Source of the DNA: a virus | Lineage: Duplodnaviria; Caudoviricetes | Virus record (IMG/VR): IMGVR_UViG_2914923772_000011 | Span: 10,054 to 74,053 of that record | Length of the DNA stretch: 64,000 nt | Direction: 5' to 3' (one strand) | Part shown: piece by piece, positions 3,888-37,159 of the stretch | Layout: each line of letters begins with the position of its first letter | Position numbering within the stretch: position 1 is the first letter of the stretch | Position numbers and translations under genes: made by a program | The notes under the pieces: model-generated | Databases searched by the model: none | Told to the model about the DNA's origin: nothing | The model's input: the letters and a program-made list of their open reading frames with translations, nothing else

Positions 3888-5120
3888 CTATTTTATTTTT
3901 TCGATTTCATCTTTCAACCACTCAAATTCTCTCTGGGTGTAAACCTTTTCGGTGATGTCAGAGATCTTGTGACCGACCATATATTTGATTGCGTACTCGT
4001 CAACGCCGTACTTCTTAGCCATCGTCACAAAATGTTTACGACCATCATGCGGTCTATGCTCAGGGTTCAAATTCAATTCGTCTCGAATCATACCAAAGCC
4101 TTTTTGGTATCGAGCATAAGTAAGTGCAGTGTTTTTGCTACGAGCATTCGAATTAACATAGTTGAGCAGGTACAGACTTCCAAGTTCCTGAGCCTCTTTA
4201 TATTTTCGCTCAACCAAATGACGAATCTTCGAGTGAATTGGAACCACACGATCTGTACCGGCATCTGTTTTGATACCGCCTCGGAAAGTCCAGTTTTCCA
4301 AATCCACATTCTTTAATTCCAGCAAACCAAGTTCCTGGGGTCGCCAACCAGAATAGCACTGAATGAGCAGGACATCTACAAGCATTTTATCATCAGCGTG
4401 TTTCCAAAGCAAGTCCATCTCTTCGTCCGTAAAAGGAATATGCTCATTCTTAACTGTGACGATTTCTTTGATGGTTTCCTCACTGAGGTTAAAAGTTCGC
4501 GAATAGTTCCGGTCAACAAGCTCGTACTCCAAGGCATAATCCAACATCAAGTTAAACAAAGACTTGATTTGGTTCTTCATGGATGCACTTGGTGTCTTCT
4601 CTTCGCCTCGAACCTTCGATATGCCTTCGTCCATACAACCTTTTACATGACGAGCGCGGACATCTTTGACTCGCATATCATATACGGCCGAGCAATACCC
4701 CCATGCTGAAGCTACCGAACGAGTGCTTTTAACTGTCTTCTCGTATTCGGCAAGCCATTTCTCGTAAAGTTCCCTCATGGTGATAGATGGTTCGAGGTCG
4801 TAAGGGTTCTTATTGTACTCGACGAGAGCAGCATATGCCTCGTTGTATGTTGGAAAATAGGACTCCGGTTTAAGAGGCTTGCAGATAGGTCGTCCGTTCG
4901 AATCCTTTCCGACACTTATCATAGCTCTAAATGGGTTGCGGAGATTCCGATTCTTGATCTCACTGATCTGCCCGAAACCGTTTGGCAGTCTACGGCGTTT
5001 ATTGTTCTTATTTCGAGGTTTTCTTGGTTTTATATTTGGTTGCAATGGAAATCCGCAGTGAGGACAAGAAATTGCTTTGTCACTTACTTGTAGTTCACAT
5101 TCAGGGCATTTTATCAGCAT
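3888..5120 (-). CDS. int: Tyrosine recombinase (integrase) with N-terminal zinc ribbon
   Basis: CPEC..CPHCG; catalytic R (SGWRPQEL), K (IKT), HxxR (HDGR), H (VGH), Y (KVYT). Confidence 0.95.
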   Translation of the reverse strand: MLIKCPECELQVSDKAISCPHCGFPLQPNIKPRKPRNKNNKRRRLPNGFGQISEIKNRNLRNPFRAMISVGKDSNGRPICKPLKPESYFPTYNEAYAALVEYNKNPYDLEPSITMRELYEKWLAEYEKTVKSTRSVASAWGYCSAVYDMRVKDVRARHVKGCMDEGISKVRGEEKTPSASMKNQIKSLFNLMLDYALEYELVDRNYSRTFNLSEETIKEIVTVKNEHIPFTDEEMDLLWKHADDKMLVDVLLIQCYSGWRPQELGLLELKNVDLENWTFRGGIKTDAGTDRVVPIHSKIRHLVERKYKEAQELGSLYLLNYVNSNARSKNTALTYARYQKGFGMIRDELNLNPEHRPHDGRKHFVTMAKKYGVDEYAIKYMVGHKISDITEKVYTQREFEWLKDEIEKIK

Positions 5121-5167
5121 TATTATCACCTTCCCCATTGATTTGCTATTAGTAATCATATATCATA

Positions 5168-5193
5168 AGTGTAGGAATGTCAACTCCTACACT
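5168..5193. promoter_or_regulatory. 9-bp inverted repeat AGTGTAGGA-N8-TCCTACACT in the int divergent promoter region
   Basis: Same TGTAGG/CCTACA core as the att-flanking repeats. Confidence 0.55.
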
Positions 5194-5227
5194 AAACTTT
5201 TTAATCAGAGAAAAGAGAAATCAATAT

Positions 5228-5566
5228 ATGATTAGTGATAACCAATCAATCTGCCCCAAATGTGGAGGGCAGCTTAAATACTACGATCACGTTCGAAGAT
5301 TGGTACGGACGAAATTCGGCAACAAAAAATGGGTAGCTATCAGAAGACTTCGGTGCTGTAACTGCCATGCAGTCCACCGGGAGCTTCCTGACTTTATATT
5401 TCCGTATAAACAGTATGAAGCAGACATTATTATCGGCGTGCTCGAAGGTCTTATTACTTGTGAGACTTTTGGATTTGAAGATTATCCTTGCGAAATGACT
5501 ATGATTCGCTGGCGCTTGTTTCCACCGAGGTTGTTTTTACTAACAGCCATTCCTAACCTAAAATAG
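5228..5566 (+). CDS. Zinc-ribbon protein, DUF6431-like
   Basis: CPKCGG...RLRCCNC..HRELPDFIFPYKQY pattern. Confidence 0.6.
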   Translation: MISDNQSICPKCGGQLKYYDHVRRLVRTKFGNKKWVAIRRLRCCNCHAVHRELPDFIFPYKQYEADIIIGVLEGLITCETFGFEDYPCEMTMIRWRLFPPRLFLLTAIPNLK

Positions 5567-9010: not shown

Positions 9011-9044
9011 TTGCTTTTTATTTTCGCATGAAAGGAGAAAAGAC

Positions 9045-9365: not shown

Positions 9366-9389
9366 CAAAAGCATGAAAGGAGAAAAGAC

Positions 9390-10458: not shown

Positions 10459-10763
10459 TGAACGATATGTGTGATGCAAGCACGGCTGTTTCGATCATCC
10501 AACGATATGTTGGTGAGCATCTGTTCAGCCCATCCTTCACATGGCCAAAGTATGAATTCAGAAAAAGGTCATATCAGCAATGGGCTGCATATGAAATCTG
10601 TGATCGAATCATGGACAAGCCTTTCGACGATCCAATCACCATCATCGAAAACTTCATGTTCGAGATGGCTATGTATGCTTGTTACGGCGAGGATGAGCAG
10701 CGTAGCTTTATATTTCAGAATGCGGTCGAAACAGCTGAAGAATTAAGTCTACTATTTGTTTAA
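10458..10763 (+). CDS. Hypothetical protein, paralog of 9045-9365
   Basis: Shared SY.QWA motif; start codon uncertain. Confidence 0.65.
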   Translation: MNDMCDASTAVSIIQRYVGEHLFSPSFTWPKYEFRKRSYQQWAAYEICDRIMDKPFDDPITIIENFMFEMAMYACYGEDEQRSFIFQNAVETAEELSLLFV

Positions 10764-10779
10764 CCGAAAGGAGAAAATC

Positions 10780-11940: not shown

Positions 11941-11962
11941 TCTCTCGAAAGGAGAAAAAAAT

Positions 11963-16288: not shown

Positions 16289-16504
16289 ATGATTCATACG
16301 CAAGTGTACGGGTTTTTTCAGACATGCTTACCCGACCAGGCAAAGGAGGTAAAAGAATACTTCCCAAATGGTAAAAACAGCATTCGAATTCGCAAAACCA
16401 ACGGACAGAAATTTATATTTTCGTTGAGAGAGCCGAAGGCTTGGAAGTTTGAAACGATCGAACAATTTCTTGCCGACATGAAAGGAGAAAAGAAACATGG
16501 ATGA
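16289..16504 (+). CDS. Small hypothetical protein
   Basis: GGGAG RBS; operon position. Confidence 0.65.
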   Translation: MIHTQVYGFFQTCLPDQAKEVKEYFPNGKNSIRIRKTNGQKFIFSLREPKAWKFETIEQFLADMKGEKKHG

Positions 16505-21520: not shown

Positions 21521-21626
21521 AGGTGAATAGGTGCCAGCTTAGTACATGTCTGGTTAAATGTCCAGTAAGGTCTCGATTAGGTGTGCACGCCTATGATGGT
21601 AAGAGGAAACAGCCTATTCCCCTTTA
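21518..21626 (+). ncRNA. Candidate multi-stem structured RNA between ssb and the methylase-like gene
   Basis: 13/14-bp closing stem 21518-21531/21613-21626 with two inner hairpins. Confidence 0.35.
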
Positions 21627-21648
21627 GTAACCGAAAGGAGGTAAAGCC

Positions 21649-22518
21649 ATGTTGTGGCAGAAAAAGAAGAAACGCAAAAAGGCTACCAAGCCTAAAGCAG
21701 TTACTTTAGTTGCTCCTCAGCAGCCGGTGGAAGAGATTCCGCAAACGACTGAGCCTGAGGAAAAAGAAGAAACGCCAAAGCAAAAAAAGCCCGCTGGGGA
21801 AAAATACAAAAAGGTTTTGTCCCCGGAAAAAGCTTTCTTAGATGCATTCGGACGATTGACTAACCGACATCGGGCTTGGGATGTTTGGCGTGACTTCATC
21901 ACTATGTTCGCTTGTTCGCTATCTAATCCTCTCGATAAGGAGCACCGGGATAAGCGAGAAGCGTTATATTTGGAAATCATCAAAAAGTACAATAAGCAGG
22001 AACAAGAGGTGTTTCCTGAACTGGCTGCTCAGACTGTCTTGGCTTTGGAAGAAAATCCGGAGCAGGACTTTCTGGGCAGCATTTTCATGTCCCTTAAGCT
22101 CGGTGACGAGCATAACGGTCAGATCTTCACACCGTATCATGTCTGTGAACTAATGGCTGAAATGACGATGGATGATGTTGTAAAAAAGGTAGAACAGGAC
22201 GGTTATATTTCAATTAACGATCCGTGCTGCGGAGCTGGGGCCACATTGATTGCCGGAATCCACACTGCAAGGAAGCAGTTGGAAAAAGTAAACTTGAACT
22301 ACCAAAATCATCTTCTCGTCGTTGCACAGGATATCGATGAAACGGTGGCGCTTATGTGTTATATTCAGCTTTCACTTTTGGGGGTAGCAGGATATGTAAA
22401 GGTCGGAAACTCTCTGACAGAACCGATGACAGACAACGACAATAAAGAGAACTACTGGTTCACGCCAATGTATTATTCTAATGTCTGGGTGCTGCGTCGG
22501 ATCTTCGGAGGGCGCTGA
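21649..22518 (+). CDS. N6-adenine methyltransferase-fold protein lacking a visible NPPY/F motif
   Basis: GQIFTPYHV and NDPCCGAG SAM-binding motif; ends VGNSL..FTPMY. Confidence 0.7.
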   Translation: MLWQKKKKRKKATKPKAVTLVAPQQPVEEIPQTTEPEEKEETPKQKKPAGEKYKKVLSPEKAFLDAFGRLTNRHRAWDVWRDFITMFACSLSNPLDKEHRDKREALYLEIIKKYNKQEQEVFPELAAQTVLALEENPEQDFLGSIFMSLKLGDEHNGQIFTPYHVCELMAEMTMDDVVKKVEQDGYISINDPCCGAGATLIAGIHTARKQLEKVNLNYQNHLLVVAQDIDETVALMCYIQLSLLGVAGYVKVGNSLTEPMTDNDNKENYWFTPMYYSNVWVLRRIFGGR

Positions 22519-23756: not shown

Positions 23757-23769
23757 GAAAGGAGAAAAG

Positions 23770-23988
23770 ATGATAACAATTGATGTCGCGGAGTATTGCT
23801 CTGCTTGCATGGACTTCGACCCAGATGTTCAACGACCGCAAAAAGCATACGGAATGAGTGAAGAGATCGTCATATCCGACACGGTCATTCGATGCTCAAA
23901 TCGAAATCGGTGCAAAAACATTGAGCGATACCTGAGAAAGAAGGTGACGAACGATGGCGTTGGCAAGACTGACGAAGCAATGCCGTGA
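23770..23988 (+). CDS. Small Cys-containing hypothetical protein
   Basis: GAAAGGAGAAAAG RBS. Confidence 0.65.
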   Translation: MITIDVAEYCSACMDFDPDVQRPQKAYGMSEEIVISDTVIRCSNRNRCKNIERYLRKKVTNDGVGKTDEAMP

Positions 23989-24223: not shown

Positions 24224-24698
24224 ATATGCATAACAATACCAACAATTCAGACAGAATGAATACTGTCGCTTATAAAATCGGGCAGGCTATCGCGCTGGTA
24301 GCTTGTCTTTGTGTTTCTGCCATCGTCATTGCTTTAACTGTGAAGTGCATCCTGTGGATTTTGTAAGGAGTTTTTGCAGATGAATGAAGAAAAGGAAGTC
24401 TATTTTGACCAGTATTGCAAATCTTGCAAATACCACGGTCTTGAAGAGTCCAAAGACCCGTGCAATGACTGTCTCGCAGAACCCAGCAATACAAATTCCC
24501 ACAAACCGATGAACTATGAAAGCAAAAACAATTCTTGATGCCGAGAAAAAGGATGCGATTGATATTGCAACGGAACTTTGCTATAGCGAAGAAGTCAAGA
24601 GAAAAATTGCACAGGCAAAATCTGTTTACGAAATTGGTCGCATCCTTAAACAAGCACGGCTCGATCAAGAGTGATATTTCTGAAAGGAGAAAAGAAAC

Positions 24699-24998
24699 AT
24701 GAATCTTGAGGAGTTCAGAAAGGCACTTTCGTCAGATGCTACTGAAGAGAATGCACAACTGAAAAGACAGTTGTCAGACCTTCAGACTGAATACCATGAA
24801 AAGCTTTCAAAACTCGAAAATGAAAACGATTCACTTAAAGAAAGTTGTCGGGTTTTATGCAATCGATGCTTTACTCTTACGAGAGGTGTTACTTGTCTAT
24901 TTTGTGGTCTCGATTACCCCTGCCCTCATATGCCGGGGCTTGAGGAACAGGTGGCTATGGCTCATAAATTGAGAAAGGAGATCGAAAAAAATGGCTAA
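24699..24998 (+). CDS. Coiled-coil protein with Cys cluster
   Basis: GAAAGGAGAAAAGAAAC RBS; CNRC..CLFC. Confidence 0.7.
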   Translation: MNLEEFRKALSSDATEENAQLKRQLSDLQTEYHEKLSKLENENDSLKESCRVLCNRCFTLTRGVTCLFCGLDYPCPHMPGLEEQVAMAHKLRKEIEKNG

Positions 24999-32888: not shown

Positions 32889-35609
32889 ATGAGTCTCACG
32901 GATGATATTTTAATGCATTACGGTATGCCCAGAAGGTCTGGTCGTTATCCTTGGGGTTCGGGTGATAACCCTTATCAGCACAGCGGTGATTTTCTTTCCC
33001 GTGTAGAGGAACTGAAAAAGTCCAATTTCACCTTTACCGATAAAGATGGAAAAACTTACACAGGAGAAGTAGCCATTGCAAAATCTATGGGCTTGAGTAC
33101 AACCCAATTTCGTACCCAGATGAGCCTTGCAAAGGATGAACGCCGTTCTGCTGATGTCGCTACGGCTAAGGCTCTTCGTGCTAAGGGTTATAGTTTGAAT
33201 GAAATCGCTGATAAGATGGGCTTTGCTAACGATTCTTCGGTTCGCTCGCTTTTGAATGAGAGTTCCGAAGCTCGTATGAATCAGGCAAAGCAGACCGCTG
33301 AATTTCTGAAAAAACAGATTTCGGAAAAAGGCATGATCGATGTCGGAACCGGAGTCGAAAGAGAGCTTGGTATTTCGAAAGAGAAAATGAACCAGGCTCT
33401 TTATATTTTGGAAATGGAAGGCTATCCCATCTATGGCGGCGGTGTCCCTCAGGTAACAAACCCGGGTAAGCAAACAAACATCAAGGTTCTCTGCCCTCCA
33501 GGAACAGAGCATAAAGAGATTTATAATTTCGAGAATGTCCATTCCGTCAGAGACTATGTGTCTCATGATGACGGCGAGACATTCGACAAGTTTGTCTATC
33601 CTAAAAGTATGGATTCAAGCCGCTTGAAAATCCGTTATGCGGAAGATGGCGGTATTCAGAAAGATGGTGTCATTGAAATTCGTCGTGGTGTAGACGACTT
33701 ATCTCTCGGTGATTCCCATTATGCTCAGGTTCGCATCTTGGTCGACGGCAATAGATATCTGAAAGGAATGGCTGTTTATTCTGATGATCTTCCTGATGGT
33801 GTGGATGTAATGTTCAACACCAATAAGAAAAAGGGCACTCCGACATCGGATGTTCTGAAGAAGGTAAAGGATGACCCCGATAATCCGTTTGGTTCCCTTA
33901 TCAAAGCCGGTGGGCAGAGCTATTATATCGATGCTGATGGTAAACGACAGCTCTCCCTTATCAATAAGCGTGCTGAAGAGGGCGATTGGGGTGAATGGGC
34001 GGATAAACTCCCCTCCCAGTTTCTTTCTAAACAGAGTTTGAGTCTTGTCAATAAACAGCTGAATTTGGCGGCATCTGATAAGATGGCTGAATTTGATGAA
34101 ATCTGCTCACTGACAAATCCGACGGTCAAAAAATCATTACTGAAATCCTTTGCGGATGATTGTGACTCTGCTGCTGTGCACCTTCAGGCAGCTGCTCTTC
34201 CTCGTCAGAAATATCAGGTGATCCTACCTATCACTTCGATGAAAGACAATGAAGTGTATGCCCCGAATTACAAGAATGGTGAAACAGTAGCTCTGGTTCG
34301 TTACCCACATGGCGGAACTTTTGAGATTCCTATCCTTACAGTGAATAACAAGCAGGCAGAGGCTCGTCGAATCCTTGGCAACACACCTAAAGATGCAATC
34401 GGTATTAACAGTAAGGTTGCGGAACGGCTTTCAGGTGCTGACTTTGATGGTGATACTGTCATGGTCATCCCCTGTAACTCTGGTAAAAGCAAGGTCAAGA
34501 TTACTTCCACTCCTCCTCTGAAGGGACTTGAAGGATTTGACCCAAAATTGGAGTATGGTGGAAAACCGGCTGGCACTTTCAAGCCTATGAAGAACACACA
34601 GAAAGAGATGGGTGTCATTTCTAATCTGATTACCGATATGACTTTGAAGGGTGCCACGCAGGATGAGCTTGCAAGAGCCGTTCGCCATAGCATGGTAGTT
34701 ATCGATGCCGAAAAACACAAGCTGGACTATAAGCAAAGTGAGATCGACAATGGCATCAGCTCTTTGAAAAAGAAGTATCAGGGCACGGTTGACGAAGACG
34801 GAAGATACCACGAGGGTGCTTCGACTCTGATTTCCCGTGCTAAATCGGAGACTTCTGTCACTAAGAGGCAAGGTAGTCCGAAAATCGATGAAAAGACAGG
34901 CGAATACATATGGAAAGATGTGGATGACCCTGTTTATGTCGATAAGCGAACTGGCAAGGTCAAAGAGCGTACTCAGCCCAGCACTAAGATGGCTGAGGCA
35001 AAGGACGCCTATACCCTGGTTTCCGAAGCTGATACCCCCGTGGAGCGTGCTTATGCTAACTATGCCAACAAAATGAAAGCCCTGGGCAACCAGGCTCGTC
35101 TTGAGATCCTCTCCACTGGGAAAGTACCCTACTCCGCCACTGCAAAAGAGGCCTATCAAGCTGAGGTCGATTCTCTGAATGCTAAGCTCAATGTAGCTCT
35201 GAAGAATGCACCCAGAGAAAGGCAGGCTCAGACTATGGCTAATGCGGTAGTGGCTGCTAAAAAGCAGGACAATCCGGATATGACAAAGGGCGAGCTCAAG
35301 AAAGCAAGCCAGCAGGCGCTTACTCAGGCTCGTGCCTCTGTTGGTGCAAAGCGAGAGACCATCAAGATTACAGATCGTGAATGGGAAGCAATTCAAGCTG
35401 GCGCTATTAGCGAGAATAAGCTTACCCAAATCATCGACAATGTGGACATTGACAGTCTTAGACAGCGTGCAACACCGAGAGCGACAACAACTCTCAGCAC
35501 TGCAAAGCAGAATAAGATCGCTTCGATGAATGCTTCTGGTTACAGCACATCGGAAATTGCTGAAGCTCTTGGCATTTCTACGAGCACAGTGTCCAATTAC
35601 TTGAATTGA
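32889..35609 (+). CDS. Single-polypeptide two-barrel (multisubunit-RNAP-related) RNA polymerase with terminal sigma4-like HTH domains
   Basis: VRYPHGG..AIGINSKVAERLSGADFDGDTV parallels beta-prime RxP..NADFDGD; HTHs GYSLNEIADKMG and GYSTSEIAEALGISTSTVSNYL. Confidence 0.8.
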   Translation: MSLTDDILMHYGMPRRSGRYPWGSGDNPYQHSGDFLSRVEELKKSNFTFTDKDGKTYTGEVAIAKSMGLSTTQFRTQMSLAKDERRSADVATAKALRAKGYSLNEIADKMGFANDSSVRSLLNESSEARMNQAKQTAEFLKKQISEKGMIDVGTGVERELGISKEKMNQALYILEMEGYPIYGGGVPQVTNPGKQTNIKVLCPPGTEHKEIYNFENVHSVRDYVSHDDGETFDKFVYPKSMDSSRLKIRYAEDGGIQKDGVIEIRRGVDDLSLGDSHYAQVRILVDGNRYLKGMAVYSDDLPDGVDVMFNTNKKKGTPTSDVLKKVKDDPDNPFGSLIKAGGQSYYIDADGKRQLSLINKRAEEGDWGEWADKLPSQFLSKQSLSLVNKQLNLAASDKMAEFDEICSLTNPTVKKSLLKSFADDCDSAAVHLQAAALPRQKYQVILPITSMKDNEVYAPNYKNGETVALVRYPHGGTFEIPILTVNNKQAEARRILGNTPKDAIGINSKVAERLSGADFDGDTVMVIPCNSGKSKVKITSTPPLKGLEGFDPKLEYGGKPAGTFKPMKNTQKEMGVISNLITDMTLKGATQDELARAVRHSMVVIDAEKHKLDYKQSEIDNGISSLKKKYQGTVDEDGRYHEGASTLISRAKSETSVTKRQGSPKIDEKTGEYIWKDVDDPVYVDKRTGKVKERTQPSTKMAEAKDAYTLVSEADTPVERAYANYANKMKALGNQARLEILSTGKVPYSATAKEAYQAEVDSLNAKLNVALKNAPRERQAQTMANAVVAAKKQDNPDMTKGELKKASQQALTQARASVGAKRETIKITDREWEAIQAGAISENKLTQIIDNVDIDSLRQRATPRATTTLSTAKQNKIASMNASGYSTSEIAEALGISTSTVSNYLN

Positions 35610-35623
35610 AAGGAGTGACTGGT

Positions 35624-35887
35624 ATGAATGGTTCTTGTGCCCTTACCACATTTGACAACCCTTACAATCCATTTGAACAGTTCTCCGATTGGTTCCTGTT
35701 TGATGTAGAAAAGGGTTACAACACTTGCGCTTATCTCGATCGAATTGCTCACACTTCTGACCAATTCTCTGAAGAAGAGAACAATCAAGAGATTGAAAGA
35801 GCGATTGACGAGATCATTCGTTACGACTTCATGAACATTTACAAGAAAGTTAAGAGAACGAAAACAACAAAAGCAGACAAGGCTTGA
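35624..35887 (+). CDS. Small conserved hypothetical protein
   Basis: GAAAGGAG RBS directly after the RNAP gene. Confidence 0.75.
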   Translation: MNGSCALTTFDNPYNPFEQFSDWFLFDVEKGYNTCAYLDRIAHTSDQFSEEENNQEIERAIDEIIRYDFMNIYKKVKRTKTTKADKA

Positions 35888-36066
35888 ACTATAGGTTGAG
35901 GTCTAATGCTCTTTGAATAAAGTTTTTGTTTTCTTCTCTGAAAACATTTGAACTTGAAGCCAACACAAACAAATAATCACTTGATCTGCACTGCTGCCGC
36001 AGGGCTTAAAGACATGGGGAGGGGGTCTCCAAAATCGCACCCCCTACCTCATCGCGGTGGTCTTAA

Positions 36067-36094
36067 AAAAATCTCCGGAGGGATATTTTGGAAA
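36067..36094 (+). promoter_or_regulatory. Second-class conserved motif (copy B), candidate late promoter
   Basis: 22/28 identical to 6828-6855; upstream of the hairpin RNA, tRNA and packaging genes. Confidence 0.4.
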
Positions 36095-36110
36095 TGGGGT
36101 TTACCCCACG

Positions 36111-36242
36111 GGTGCAGTATTTGAACGAGCTTACAGGGTTGAGACATTTTCCATAAAGTGTGAACATCTCCTTTCATGTTTCTTTTCTCCTTTCGGTGAT
36201 TGGTGGAAATTCAACTCTGTAAGTTCTTTCAAATACTGCACC
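36111..36242 (+). ncRNA. Hairpin RNA with 32-bp stem and tandem anti-Shine-Dalgarno loop
   Basis: Arms 36111-36142 and 36211-36242 pair at 29/32 Watson-Crick plus two G-U on the + strand; loop contains CTCCTTTCATGTTTCTTTTCTCCTTTCGGT. Confidence 0.7.
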
Positions 36243-36293
36243 TATTCTCACCTAAAAGAGCATCGGTTCAGATAAAAAGTGCAGTACAAGTAT

Positions 36294-36381
36294 GCGGATA
36301 TGGCGGAACTGGCAGACGCAATAGACTCAGAATTTATTGGAGGTTATCTCCGTGCAGGTTCAACTCCTGTTATCCGCACCA
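36294..36381 (+). tRNA. tRNA-Leu(CAG) with encoded CCA
   Basis: GCGGATA/TATCCGC acceptor; ATAGA-CTCAGAA-TTTAT anticodon arm; long variable arm; GCAGG-TTCAACT-CCTGT T arm. Confidence 0.9.
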
Positions 36382-36408
36382 AATTTTTTAAGAGAGGAGG
36401 CAGTGCCA

Positions 36409-36750
36409 ATGCCAAAAGGTAAAGCTGCAAGCTCTTCCGACTCAAACAGCCCATTGAGACCACCGACATCTCTCGAAGCGCAAGAGAACTTAATGATTTC
36501 TTTGGCGGTTCAATGTGCTGAAAAGCAGCTCAGAGACGGAACTGCTTCTTCTCAGGTCATAACACATTATTTGAAGCTCGGTTCCAGTAAGGAACGAATT
36601 GAAAAGGAGATTCTGGAGAAGCAGAAAGAGCTTATCGAAGCGAAGACCAAGAATCTAAATTCCAACAGTGAAGCCAAGGAGTTGTACAACAAGGCTCTCG
36701 AAGCGTTTAGGAGATATTCCGGTGCAGGCGGTGAAGACGATGAGTATTAA
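36409..36750 (+). CDS. Probable terminase small subunit
   Basis: First late gene, before HNH and TerL; helical ENLMISLAVQCAEKQLRDGTASSQVITHYLK pattern. Confidence 0.55.
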   Translation: MPKGKAASSSDSNSPLRPPTSLEAQENLMISLAVQCAEKQLRDGTASSQVITHYLKLGSSKERIEKEILEKQKELIEAKTKNLNSNSEAKELYNKALEAFRRYSGAGGEDDEY

Positions 36751-37159
36751 AACCTATTCGGAGTTAATTACATTGCCGACATTTGAAGAACGATTTCTCT
36801 ACTTAAAGCTTGATGGTTCCGTTGGAAAAGAAACTTTCGGTTTTAAGCGATGGTTGAACCAAGAGTTTTATCATTCGGATCAATGGCTGCAATTCCGAGA
36901 TGAAATTATCATTCGGGATGAAGGTTGTGATCTTGGTATGCCGGGTTATGAAATCTTTGGTTCCGTATTGATCCATCATCTGAATCCGATTACTTATGAA
37001 GATATCTTAAATCAGAGCCCCTGCGTTTTCGATCCGGAGAATGCAGTTTGCACCAAGTTGAATACACACAATGCGATTCACTATGGTGATGAAAGCTTAC
37101 TGGTTCTTCCACCTGTTCAACGCACACAAAATGATACATGCCCCTGGCGAAAACAATGA
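36740..37159 (+). CDS. HNH endonuclease (packaging associated)
   Basis: IIRDEGCDLG..IHHLNP..THNAIH. Confidence 0.8.
   Translation: MSIKTYSELITLPTFEERFLYLKLDGSVGKETFGFKRWLNQEFYHSDQWLQFRDEIIIRDEGCDLGMPGYEIFGSVLIHHLNPITYEDILNQSPCVFDPENAVCTKLNTHNAIHYGDESLLVLPPVQRTQNDTCPWRKQ

What the first reader, a model, noticed from the sequence alone, without database searches (positions are those of the whole stretch)
36111..36242. Hairpin RNA presenting tandem anti-Shine-Dalgarno sequences that match the phage's own ribosome-binding sites
Seen: a 32-bp inverted repeat (36111-36142 / 36211-36242) encloses a 68-nt loop. Two of its three non-Watson-Crick pairs are G-U only on the + strand, favouring a + strand RNA. 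The loop contains CTCCTTTC twice. 36175-36194 is the exact 20-nt reverse complement of the RBS plus start codon at 16480-16499 (GAAAGGAGAAAAGAAACATG, the gene just before the primase-polymerase). The match to 24682-24703 is 22 nt. Other matches are 15 nt at 10763-10777 (ACCGAAAGGAGAAAA), 13 nt at 11946, and 11-12 nt CATGAAAGGAG at 9027, 9372, 16477 and 32043 (leader of the RNAP operon). The hairpin sits at the head of the late region, just before tRNA-Leu and terminase. Established: trans-acting sRNAs often repress translation through C/U-rich anti-SD loops. Inference: a late-expressed phage sRNA shuts down translation of many early and replication mRNAs at once, via a shared RBS that evolved as its target. 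This would be an RNA-based early-to-late switch (or lysogeny silencer) that I do not recognise as described. Caveat: some late genes (37158, 45113, 57313) also carry GAAAGGAG, but with shorter complementarity.
Basis: partly seen in the sequence, partly recalled or inferred. Interest (0 to 1): 0.9.

Follow-up and report, generated by a model that had tools for sequence, protein, structure and literature searches.

The report
Phage leader RNA hairpin with anti-ribosome-binding-site loop
The hairpin is real and belongs to a widespread, undescribed family of folded phage RNAs upstream of the DNA-packaging genes, whose exposed loop always carries the ribosome's mRNA-docking sequence; it probably controls translation, but it has never been seen as RNA.

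Summary
The 32-bp inverted repeat with a 68-nt loop, the two CTCCTTTC copies and the 20- and 22-nt antisense matches to two early-gene start sites are all present and far above chance.

New findings:
1. The element starts 40 nt inside the phage's left cohesive end (cos overhang at 36062-36071).
2. It is one member of a large family. About 60 diverse relatives from gut phages and from Arthrobacter, Curtobacterium and Microbacterium phages carry a 24-41 bp stem. It lies just upstream of the same 113-aa gene, ahead of the HNH and terminase genes. The loop always holds CTCCTT(TC) in the gene-sense orientation.
3. Stem changes are compensatory and favour G-U on the + strand (127 versus 35). This points to a + strand RNA, not a symmetric DNA site and not the minus-strand ORF, which is not conserved.
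4. No Rfam family matches.
5. In this sub-lineage each genome keeps 20-38 nt of perfect antisense match between its own loop and its own early start sites. Two lineage-specific variants are shared by loop and target.

Expression is unshown, there is no own terminator, and early-gene targeting is not family-wide. The scan has noted similar leader RNAs in other genomes.

The parts
36062..36071 (.). Cohesive-end (cos) overhang CTTAAAAAAA. This is the left end of virion DNA, 40 nt before the hairpin.
   Evidence: Five or more independent IMG/VR contigs start exactly at 36062, three of them directly fused to sequencing adaptor. One contig starts at 36072. A 100%-complete contig carries the 10 nt at both ends. 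The left end of Arthrobacter phage Gordon, whose ends are defined, is homologous.
36072..36110 (+). Cos-proximal conserved region, with the palindrome TCTCCGGAGGGA (36072-36083) and a small hairpin (36096-36107).
   Evidence: Conserved at the left ends of all relatives examined, including actinophages. Its function was not tested.
36111..36142 (+). 5' arm of the basal stem.
36143..36210 (+). Apical region. A second helix pairs 36148-36153 with 36204-36209. A sub-hairpin pairs 36162-36167 with 36176-36181 and presents anti-SD copy 1 (36168-36175) in its 8-nt loop. Anti-SD copy 2 lies at 36187-36194.
   Evidence: The core 36166-36199 is invariant even in relatives about 75% identical.
36211..36242 (+). 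3' arm of the basal stem.
36294..36381 (+). tRNA-Leu(CAG) between the hairpin and the 113-aa gene. Its processing would detach the hairpin RNA from the downstream mRNA (inference).
   Evidence: It is present in the double-motif relatives scanned except L066/L067, and absent from the eight single-motif relatives scanned.
36409..36750 (+). The 113-aa gene (phrog_4259, function unknown), first gene of the HNH/terminase module. The hairpin family always lies just upstream of it.
16480..16499 (+). Candidate target 1: RBS, spacer and ATG of a 77-aa gene (phrog_16856) that ends 10 nt before the primase-polymerase gene. It is a 20-nt perfect antisense match to the loop.
   Evidence: (-19.3 kcal/mol).
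24682..24703 (+). Candidate target 2: RBS, spacer and start of a 99-aa gene. It is a 22-nt perfect antisense match.
   Evidence: -21.0 kcal/mol.
9375..9388 (+). Weaker candidate target, one of a group with 14-15 nt matches. The others lie at 9030-9043, 10763-10777 and 23757-23770.
   Evidence: -8 to -14.5 kcal/mol.

Best explanation
The element is a + strand structured RNA of a previously undescribed, widespread phage family. It lies in the leader of the first gene of the packaging module. A stem of about 30 bp holds up an apical region that displays the octamer CUCCUUUC, which is identical to the 3' tail of 16S rRNA. The RNA works by base-pairing with Shine-Dalgarno regions. In this phage lineage the apical region has grown into a roughly 30-nt antisense copy of the phage's stereotyped early start site. 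A tRNA gene has also been inserted between the hairpin and the downstream gene. The most likely action is therefore in trans. Once the genome ends are joined and the region is transcribed, the RNA pairs over the RBS and AUG of a few early or replication mRNAs. The best candidate is the 77-aa gene abutting the primase-polymerase gene. Pairing would block initiation and create RNase III substrates.

Shown: the structure, the strand, the conservation, the complementarity and its shared variants. Inferred: transcription, processing, pairing in vivo and repression.
For: Structure and family:
- 51 of 51 diverse upstream regions, plus six actinophages, have a 24-41 bp stem with CTCCTT(TC) in the loop in sense orientation and never AAGGAG.
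- 37 of 38 modelled pairs show compensatory changes. 442 cells changed on both sides against 151 +/- 15 in shuffles, and 88% of cells are paired against at most 43% when partners are slid. In the close relatives 98.6% of cells are paired, with 0 of 500 shuffles reaching that value.

Strand:
- G-U 127 versus A-C 35 with scoring that is blind to strand (p = 2e-13).
- The flanking coding sequence shows no mutation bias (141 versus 155).
- The model scores higher on + than on - in every locus where both are listed.

Loop:
- Mean unpaired probability of the octamer is 0.74 against 0.54 for the rest of the loop; 52 of 61 copies are above their loop's average.

Targets:
- 20- and 22-nt perfect matches in the window.
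- Estimated net pairing energy is -19 to -21 kcal/mol for these, against about 0 for the downstream gene's own RBS.
- Of five relatives about 75-80% identical, four keep a 20-38 nt perfect antisense match between own loop and own early start sites; the fifth (G014) keeps only near-perfect copies, 1-2 mismatches in 20.
- The G012 loop variant (AAATATG) recurs in two of its own targets, with 26- and 38-nt matches. The G011 flank variant recurs at one of its own early loci, with a 28-nt match.
- The start site of the 77-aa gene stays at 18-20 of 20 positions while its protein falls to 50-60% identity.
Against:
- No own terminator was found, and only weak promoter-like matches, so the element is not a classical stand-alone sRNA gene.
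- In the other sub-families the loop matches its own genome no better than other genomes (12-18 nt against 11-16 nt).
- In actinophage members the GAAAGGAG sites are mostly in late genes.
- In the window, duplex energy with the loop is not significantly different between early and late start sites.
- The shared loop and target variants could come from gene conversion among copies of a mobile start-site cassette rather than from selection for pairing.
- Copy 2 of the octamer is half sequestered (0.50).
- Two contigs lack 19 nt between the two octamers.
- Gordonia and Streptomyces relatives lack the element altogether.
Confidence: 0.42

Rival explanations
1. The element is a purely cis-acting leader. 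The hairpin would be an RNase III processing site, a stability element or a translational operator for the 113-aa gene and the packaging operon behind it. The loop octamer would contact that gene's own purine-rich RBS or only shape the fold. The long antisense matches in this lineage would be a by-product of cassette copying.
For: The element always lies 3-170 nt upstream of the same gene, even where that gene is 2 kb from the genome end. No terminator lies between the hairpin and the gene. The gene's RBS region GAGAGGAGG is conserved in five of the six gut-phage genomes inspected and can form 8 pairs with the octamer. Long near-perfect stems are typical RNase III substrates, as in phage T7 and lambda leaders (established knowledge). 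Relatives in which the gene abuts an upstream gene have lost the hairpin.
Against: In the window the estimated net energy of loop with the gene's RBS is about 0 to +3 kcal/mol. A tRNA gene now separates the two, yet the element is fully conserved. The strict invariance of an octamer identical to the 16S tail across two host phyla is more than a fold-shaping role needs.
Confidence: 0.3
2. The element is a decoy that mimics the 16S rRNA 3' tail. It would titrate a host or phage factor that recognises that tail, for example an rRNA-cleaving toxin or defence nuclease, or a maturation or hibernation factor, rather than pairing with mRNAs.
For: The conserved octamer equals the 16S tail and is invariant in phages of both Bacillota and Actinomycetota, while everything around it varies. 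This invariance is expected if the partner is a universal host component.
Against: The conserved stretch does not extend 5' into the CC of CCUCC: the base before it is usually U or A. No candidate protein partner was identified. This is pure inference.
Confidence: 0.08
3. The element acts at the DNA level. It could be a strand-specific single-stranded DNA hairpin such as a lagging-strand or replication initiation signal, an accessory packaging site next to cos, or an invertible switch flanked by inverted repeats.
For: It lies 40 nt from the cos end in gut phages. A G-T bias would also fit a + strand ssDNA hairpin. One contig (L050) has the whole element inverted, with the crossover in the outer 15 perfect base pairs, and two others show conversion between the arms.
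Against: In Microbacterium and Curtobacterium phages it lies about 2 kb from the genome end, which argues against a cos accessory site. Orientation is fixed in 51 of 51 lineages and in all but one close relative, which argues against a programmed switch. The TAGCGT loop motif of ssoA-type origins is absent. No DNA-level role explains an invariant anti-Shine-Dalgarno octamer.
Confidence: 0.1
4. The loop is a genuine minus-strand ribosome-binding site that drives a small ORF (42 aa in the window).
For: On the minus strand there is a perfect RBS, a 9-nt spacer and an ATG. In several relatives a start codon follows the octamer at a plausible distance.
Against: The reading frame and length are not kept: 3, 13, 14 and 42 codons, with a 5-nt indel inside the arm. 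Gordon has no start codon at a usable distance. The ORF crosses the cos cut. The G-U bias favours the other strand. No protein-family match was found.
Confidence: 0.03

Closest known systems
c4 antisense RNA of phages P1/P7 (Rfam RF01695) and related phage immunity RNAs (P22 sar, P4 CI)
   Same: It is a phage-encoded hairpin RNA made from the leader of an operon. Its exposed sequences are antisense to a ribosome-binding region of the phage's own mRNA. Repressing a small upstream ORF would also silence the gene coupled to it, as icd does for ant in P1 (PMC8198154 for the c4/icd/ant circuit). Here the 77-aa ORF abuts the primase-polymerase gene. Loop and target variants differ together between related phages.
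   Different: There is no sequence or model match. The stem is 30 bp, the location is the late/packaging leader next to cos, and there are several dispersed candidate targets rather than one site in the same transcript. The invariant part equals the 16S tail, and the family spans two host phyla. RNase P processing of c4 is recalled from memory and was not checked here.
C-rich-loop riboregulators of Bacillota (RsaE/RoxS, RNAIII hairpins)
   Same: An unpaired pyrimidine motif in a hairpin loop is proposed to pair with Shine-Dalgarno sequences of several mRNAs and block the initiation complex (PMC2790875).
   Different: Those are stand-alone chromosomal sRNA genes with their own promoter and terminator and a UCCC motif. 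Here the motif is CUCCUUUC, no terminator is present, the element is viral, and there is no Rfam match.
Start-associated sequences (SAS) of Cluster K mycobacteriophages
   Same: SAS are a stereotyped motif containing the RBS, placed a few bases before the start codons of non-structural genes. [quoted passage not shown] The window shows the same pattern: 31 sense copies and an inverted copy only in this hairpin.
   Different: The motif and the phage group are different. Whether the inverted SAS copy in Cluster K phages sits in a hairpin was not examined here, so this is a lead and not a membership claim.
T4 RegA translational repressor
   Same: The proposed outcome is the same: one phage product that shuts down translation of many early mRNAs by occupying their initiation regions (established knowledge).
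   Different: RegA is a protein. Here the proposed effector is an RNA, and the effect is untested.
int-alpA RNA motif (Rfam RF02996)
   Different: There is no model match in the window or in 16 relatives, and the architecture is different.

Membership tests
Any Rfam 15 family (including c4 RF01695, int-alpA RF02996, RsaE) | Covariance-model match at or near the gathering score | tested here: not met
   Only tRNA is found in window 35500-36800 at E <= 10, and only tRNAs in 16 diverse family members at gathering score.
P1/P7 c4-type leader-encoded antisense RNA | Exposed sequences antisense to a ribosome-binding region of the phage's own mRNA | tested here: met
   20- and 22-nt perfect matches covering RBS and ATG. 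Four of five related genomes have 20-38 nt perfect matches; the fifth has copies with 1-2 mismatches.
P1/P7 c4-type leader-encoded antisense RNA | RNA is made and processed out of a leader transcript | not testable with these tools
A tRNA gene 51 nt downstream would provide an RNase P cut, which is inference.
P1/P7 c4-type leader-encoded antisense RNA | Regulator and target change together between related phages | tested here: inconclusive
   G012 and G011 share lineage-specific variants between loop and own targets. Gene conversion among cassette copies is not excluded, and the orthologous 77-aa gene in G012 does not follow.
Stand-alone trans-acting sRNA gene (RsaE/RNAIII type) | Own promoter and intrinsic terminator | tested here: not met
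   No terminator-like sites in 35400-36900. The only + strand promoter-like match (35948-35977) is no more than expected by chance and is only moderately conserved.
Stand-alone trans-acting sRNA gene (RsaE/RNAIII type) | Unpaired pyrimidine motif complementary to Shine-Dalgarno sequences | tested here: met
   The octamer is present in 51 of 51 loops. Mean unpaired probability is 0.74 against 0.54 for the rest of the loop.
cos accessory / terminase-binding site (cosB-like) | Fixed position next to the cos cut and strand-symmetric constraint | tested here: not met
   The element lies about 2 kb from the left end in DizzyRudy and Yotsuba and 400 nt from it in Gordon, always next to the 113-aa gene. 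There is a strand-asymmetric G-U bias.
Invertible DNA switch | Both orientations occur; recombinase-dependent flipping | tested here: not met
   Orientation is the same in 51 of 51 lineages and in all close relatives except contig L050. Population-level reads were not available.
Small protein-coding gene on the minus strand | Conserved reading frame and peptide | tested here: not met
   Frame and length vary and only the first three codons are kept, because they are the second octamer. No Pfam or PHROG match.
Intrinsic terminator | GC-rich stem followed by a U tract | tested here: not met
   No U run follows the 3' arm in the window or in six relatives.
ssoA-type single-strand origin | Strand-specific long hairpin with a conserved TAGCGT loop motif | tested here: not met
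   The strand-specific hairpin feature is met, but the loop lacks TAGCGT (read). The definition is recalled from memory.

The most novel reading that the evidence does not exclude
The family is a general RNA regulator of translation used by many siphoviruses of Gram-positive hosts. In this reading it mimics the 16S rRNA tail, is released from the late leader, competes with ribosomes for the strongest Shine-Dalgarno sites, and so reprograms which phage (and host) mRNAs are translated. It would be an RNA counterpart of T4 RegA and the missing trans-acting partner of 'start-associated sequences'.
Probability: 0.2. Interest if true: 0.85.

Novelty: new variant of a known kind. Interest (0 to 1): 0.66.

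Why it matters
Phage riboregulators that act on ribosome-binding sites are known from only a handful of model phages. This is a structured RNA family with strong comparative support. Two protein searches each found several hundred encoding stretches of the linked 113-aa gene in IMG/VR (428 and 363), about 60 diverse relatives were checked for the hairpin, and cultured SEA-PHAGES isolates on Arthrobacter, Curtobacterium and Microbacterium carry it, so it can be tested at the bench. The family is absent from Rfam. Its only invariant loop feature is the ribosome's own mRNA-docking sequence. If it does repress start sites, it would explain two things: why these phages keep stereotyped start-site cassettes with a single inverted copy, and how expression of early or replication genes is tied to genome circularisation and the onset of packaging. 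The work also places the cos site of this uncultured phage group to the base.

Tried and rejected
A profile search against PDB sequences and an NCBIfam search gave nothing, so its function, including a possible small terminase role, stays unknown.
- A DNA search of the phage collection with the intergenic region found only tRNA-Leu look-alikes.
- RNAcofold cannot represent pairing between a loop and a second strand and returned no interaction. It was replaced by a calculation of duplex energy plus opening energy.
- The motif GTGCAGTA, present at both arm bases and before the tRNA, was tested as a possible phage promoter. It is not repeated at operon heads.
- Promoter hunting by eye across the cos junction and at the 3' arm gave only weak, inconsistent candidates.
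- The idea that GAAAGGAG is enriched in early genes as a family rule was rejected by the actinophage genomes.
- The idea that Gordonia phage Kerry carries a relocated copy was rejected: it has no CTCCTTTC on the gene strand.
- The covariance model built from close relatives does not reach the actinophage hairpins at E <= 1. Their membership rests on shared architecture, position and loop motif, not on detectable sequence homology.

Full report
**1. The observation**

The inverted repeat is at the stated coordinates. Its arms are 32 nt, 29 of 32 positions are complementary, and the loop is 68 nt. It is the best long hairpin in the whole window. As RNA the + strand folds at -61.0 kcal/mol (z = -9.1) and the - strand at -47.6 kcal/mol (z = -4.9).

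GAAAGGAG occurs 33 times in the window against 2.9 expected. Thirty-one copies are on the strand that carries nearly all genes, and the only two on the other strand are the two in this loop. The 20-mer made of RBS, 9-nt spacer and ATG is exact at 16480, at 24682 and, inverted, in the loop.

**2. Genomic setting**

- Upstream lie a 906-aa single-chain RNA polymerase of the YonO/RdRp-like PHROG family and a 93-aa gene.
- Downstream lie tRNA-Leu(CAG), a 113-aa gene (phrog_4259, function unknown), an HNH endonuclease, head-connector-like genes and the large terminase.
- Many IMG/VR contigs of relatives begin exactly at window position 36062. Three of them have sequencing adaptor fused directly to that base.
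- One contig begins at 36072. A 61,873-bp contig judged 100% complete carries the 10 nt CTTAAAAAAA at both ends.
- The left end of Arthrobacter phage Gordon, whose physical ends are defined, is homologous. In such phages the polymerase gene is at the right genome end and the homologue of the 113-aa gene is gene 1-3 at the left end.

So 36062-36071 is the cohesive end, and the hairpin starts 40 nt inside the left end of virion DNA. A transcript that includes the hairpin most likely has to start across the joined cos site. This is inference; only weak promoter-like matches were found.

**3. A family, not a singleton**

Two protein-guided searches of IMG/VR gave 160 loci.

- In 51 of 51 non-redundant upstream regions the best hairpin has arms of 23-41 nt and a loop of 41-119 nt. 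The loop contains CTCCTT(TC) in sense orientation and never its complement.
- The arms differ widely in sequence.
- The same architecture, with the loop motif CTCCTTTCAAGAG, lies 33-122 nt upstream of the gene's homologue in Arthrobacter phages Gordon, Phaby, Stayer and Circum, Curtobacterium phage Yotsuba and Microbacterium phage DizzyRudy.
- This holds even where that gene is about 2 kb from the genome end. In each of these six genomes the loop is the only minus-strand GAAAGGAG.
- Gordonia and Streptomyces relatives, in which the gene abuts an upstream gene or the genome end, lack the hairpin.
- No Rfam family matches the window or 16 members.
- A covariance model built from the close relatives finds most gut-phage members at E from 1e-11 to 0.05. 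Among loci where both strands are listed, the + strand always scores higher. The model does not find the actinophage versions.

**4. RNA on the + strand**

- In the 31-sequence alignment of close relatives 98.6% of cells pair, nine pairs change on both sides, and no shuffle reaches these values.
- On the model-guided alignment of the wider family, 37 of 38 pairs show compensatory change. This alignment is fitted to the structure and contains some reverse-strand rows. There are 442 doubly changed cells against 151 +/- 15 in shuffles, and 88% of cells are paired against at most 43% when partners are slid.
- With scoring that treats G-T and A-C alike, the stems hold 127 G-U against 35 A-C pairs (p = 2e-13, not corrected for relatedness).
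- The same loci show no such bias in flanking coding sequence (141 against 155).

This argues for selection on a + strand single strand, most simply RNA. It argues against a symmetric protein-binding DNA site.

The minus-strand ORF is not conserved. Its length is 3, 13, 14 or 42 codons, an indel shifts the frame inside the arm, Gordon has no usable start, and in the window it crosses the cos cut.

**5. The loop**

- The octamer is the only invariant loop feature. It equals the 3' tail of 16S rRNA of Bacillota and Actinomycetota (established knowledge; compare the 16S panel described in PMC3203893).
- It is predicted to be more exposed than the rest of the loop (0.74 against 0.54; 52 of 61 copies). 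It often forms the apical loop of a small sub-hairpin, as copy 1 does in the window.
- Copy 2 in the window is half sequestered.

**6. What it pairs with**

Family-wide, nothing beyond the octamer and a U-rich flank is conserved. In five other sub-families the loop matches its own genome no better than other genomes.

The window's sub-lineage, which has two octamers, is different.

- Self matches are 22 and 20 nt, against 12-14 nt in the other genomes.
- Five relatives about 75-80% identical were examined. Four keep a perfect 20-38 nt antisense match between their own loop and their own early start sites. The fifth (G014) has only near-perfect copies, with 1-2 mismatches in 20.
- The G012 loop carries a lineage-specific base change (AAATATG) that recurs in two of its own targets, with 26- and 38-nt matches.
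- The G011 loop flank variant recurs at one of its own early loci, with a 28-nt match.
- The start site of the orthologous 77-aa gene that abuts the primase-polymerase gene stays at 18-20 of 20 positions while the protein drops to 50-60% identity.

Estimated net pairing energies in the window, counting duplex energy plus opening costs:

| Start site | Net energy (kcal/mol) |
|---|---|
| Two best early targets | -19.3 and -21.0 |
| Three further early start sites | -8 to -14.5 |
| Two late start sites | about -8.5 |
| Downstream gene's own RBS | about 0 to +3 |

These data fit a trans-acting antisense RNA. They also fit concerted evolution of a mobile start-site cassette, one copy of which sits inverted in the loop.

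Points against an 'early shut-off' rule:

- In the window 23 of 59 early genes and 4 of 34 late genes carry GAAAGGAG. Late genes use AAGGAGG(T), which pairs with 16S at least as well.
- Duplex energy with the loop is not significantly different between early and late start sites (p = 0.11).
- In actinophage members the GAAAGGAG sites are mostly late.

**7. Other features**

- The tRNA gene between the hairpin and the 113-aa gene is present in the double-motif relatives scanned except L066/L067, and in none of the eight single-motif relatives scanned. Its processing would detach the hairpin RNA from the downstream mRNA, which fits a shift from cis to trans action in this lineage. This is inference.
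- One contig (L050) has the whole element inverted, with the crossover in the outer 15 perfect base pairs.
- Two contigs show conversion of one arm to the other's sequence.
- Two contigs lack the 19 nt between the octamers.
- Orientation is otherwise fixed, so a programmed switch is unlikely.

**8. Verdict**

That this is a real, conserved, + strand structured RNA element of a new family I hold at about 0.85. The mechanism is open. The probabilities I assign are:

| Reading | Probability |
|---|---|
| Trans antisense repression of the phage's own start sites in this lineage | 0.42 |
| Purely cis leader role (processing, stability or translational control of the 113-aa gene) | 0.30 |
| DNA-level role | 0.10 |
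| Decoy of the 16S tail | 0.08 |
| Minus-strand ORF | 0.03 |

The closest known systems are the leader-encoded antisense RNAs of P1/P7 (c4), the C-rich-loop sRNAs of Bacillota (PMC2790875) and, as a pattern, the start-associated sequences of Cluster K mycobacteriophages. The latter likewise have a single inverted copy and an unknown binding partner (PMC3203893). Membership in any of these is not met by model search.

Earlier notes of this scan describe similar late-leader RNAs with anti-RBS loops in other genomes. I did not test those.

Noticed in passing
window 36062-36071: The cos site of this uncultured phage group can be placed to the base: a 10-nt overhang CTTAAAAAAA, preceded by a conserved G5...C5 hairpin (about 36019-36047) and followed by the palindrome TCTCCGGAGGGA. 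Left ends are homologous from gut phages to Arthrobacter phage Gordon.
   Followed up: yes
L050:51-182 (IMG/VR contig 3300045988_009983): The whole 132-nt element is inverted relative to all other relatives, with the diagnostic arm mismatches swapped. This could be a rare recombination between the arms or a library or assembly artefact. The contig starts at the cos end.
   Followed up: partly
L047:2672-2804 and L058:2713-2846: Two contigs from different sub-lineages lack exactly the 19 nt between the two CTCCTTTC copies (slippage between the direct repeats), leaving a single octamer. In L035 and L054 the 5' arm has been converted to the perfect complement of the 3' arm.
   Followed up: partly
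window 5500-64000: There are two classes of ribosome-binding site. GAAAGGAG(A), often as a stereotyped cassette with an A-rich spacer, is found on 23 of 59 early genes. AAGGAGG(T) is found on most late genes, of which only 4 of 34 carry GAAAGGAG. Identical 21-nt start-site cassettes occur at 9027 and 9372.
   Followed up: partly
window 36234-36249 with 36271-36286: The last bases of the 3' arm can pair instead with a conserved AAGTGCAGTA just before the tRNA (16 nt, 81%). No covariation was seen by eye, and a possible alternative structure was not analysed.
   Followed up: no
window 5137-5250: This is the second-best long hairpin of the window (27-nt arms, 60-nt loop). It overlaps the start of the integrase-like minus-strand gene (3888-5159) and the first rightward ORF (5177-5566). 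It could be an operator or attachment-related repeat.
   Followed up: no
MG962369.1 (Gordonia phage Kerry) 35828-35998: This relative lacks the leader hairpin but has a 28-bp stem with a 115-nt pyrimidine-rich loop (CCTTCTTCCTTCTC) in an early intergenic gap. It may be an unrelated or replacement element.
   Followed up: no
G012 29774, G011 18530, G014 39448; window 21601-21651: This is an orthologous early locus whose start-site cassette is kept while the small ORF behind it varies. It is a 46-aa HTH-like protein in G012, is reduced to a few codons or has lost its ATG in G011 and G014, and a different gene follows in the window.
   Followed up: partly
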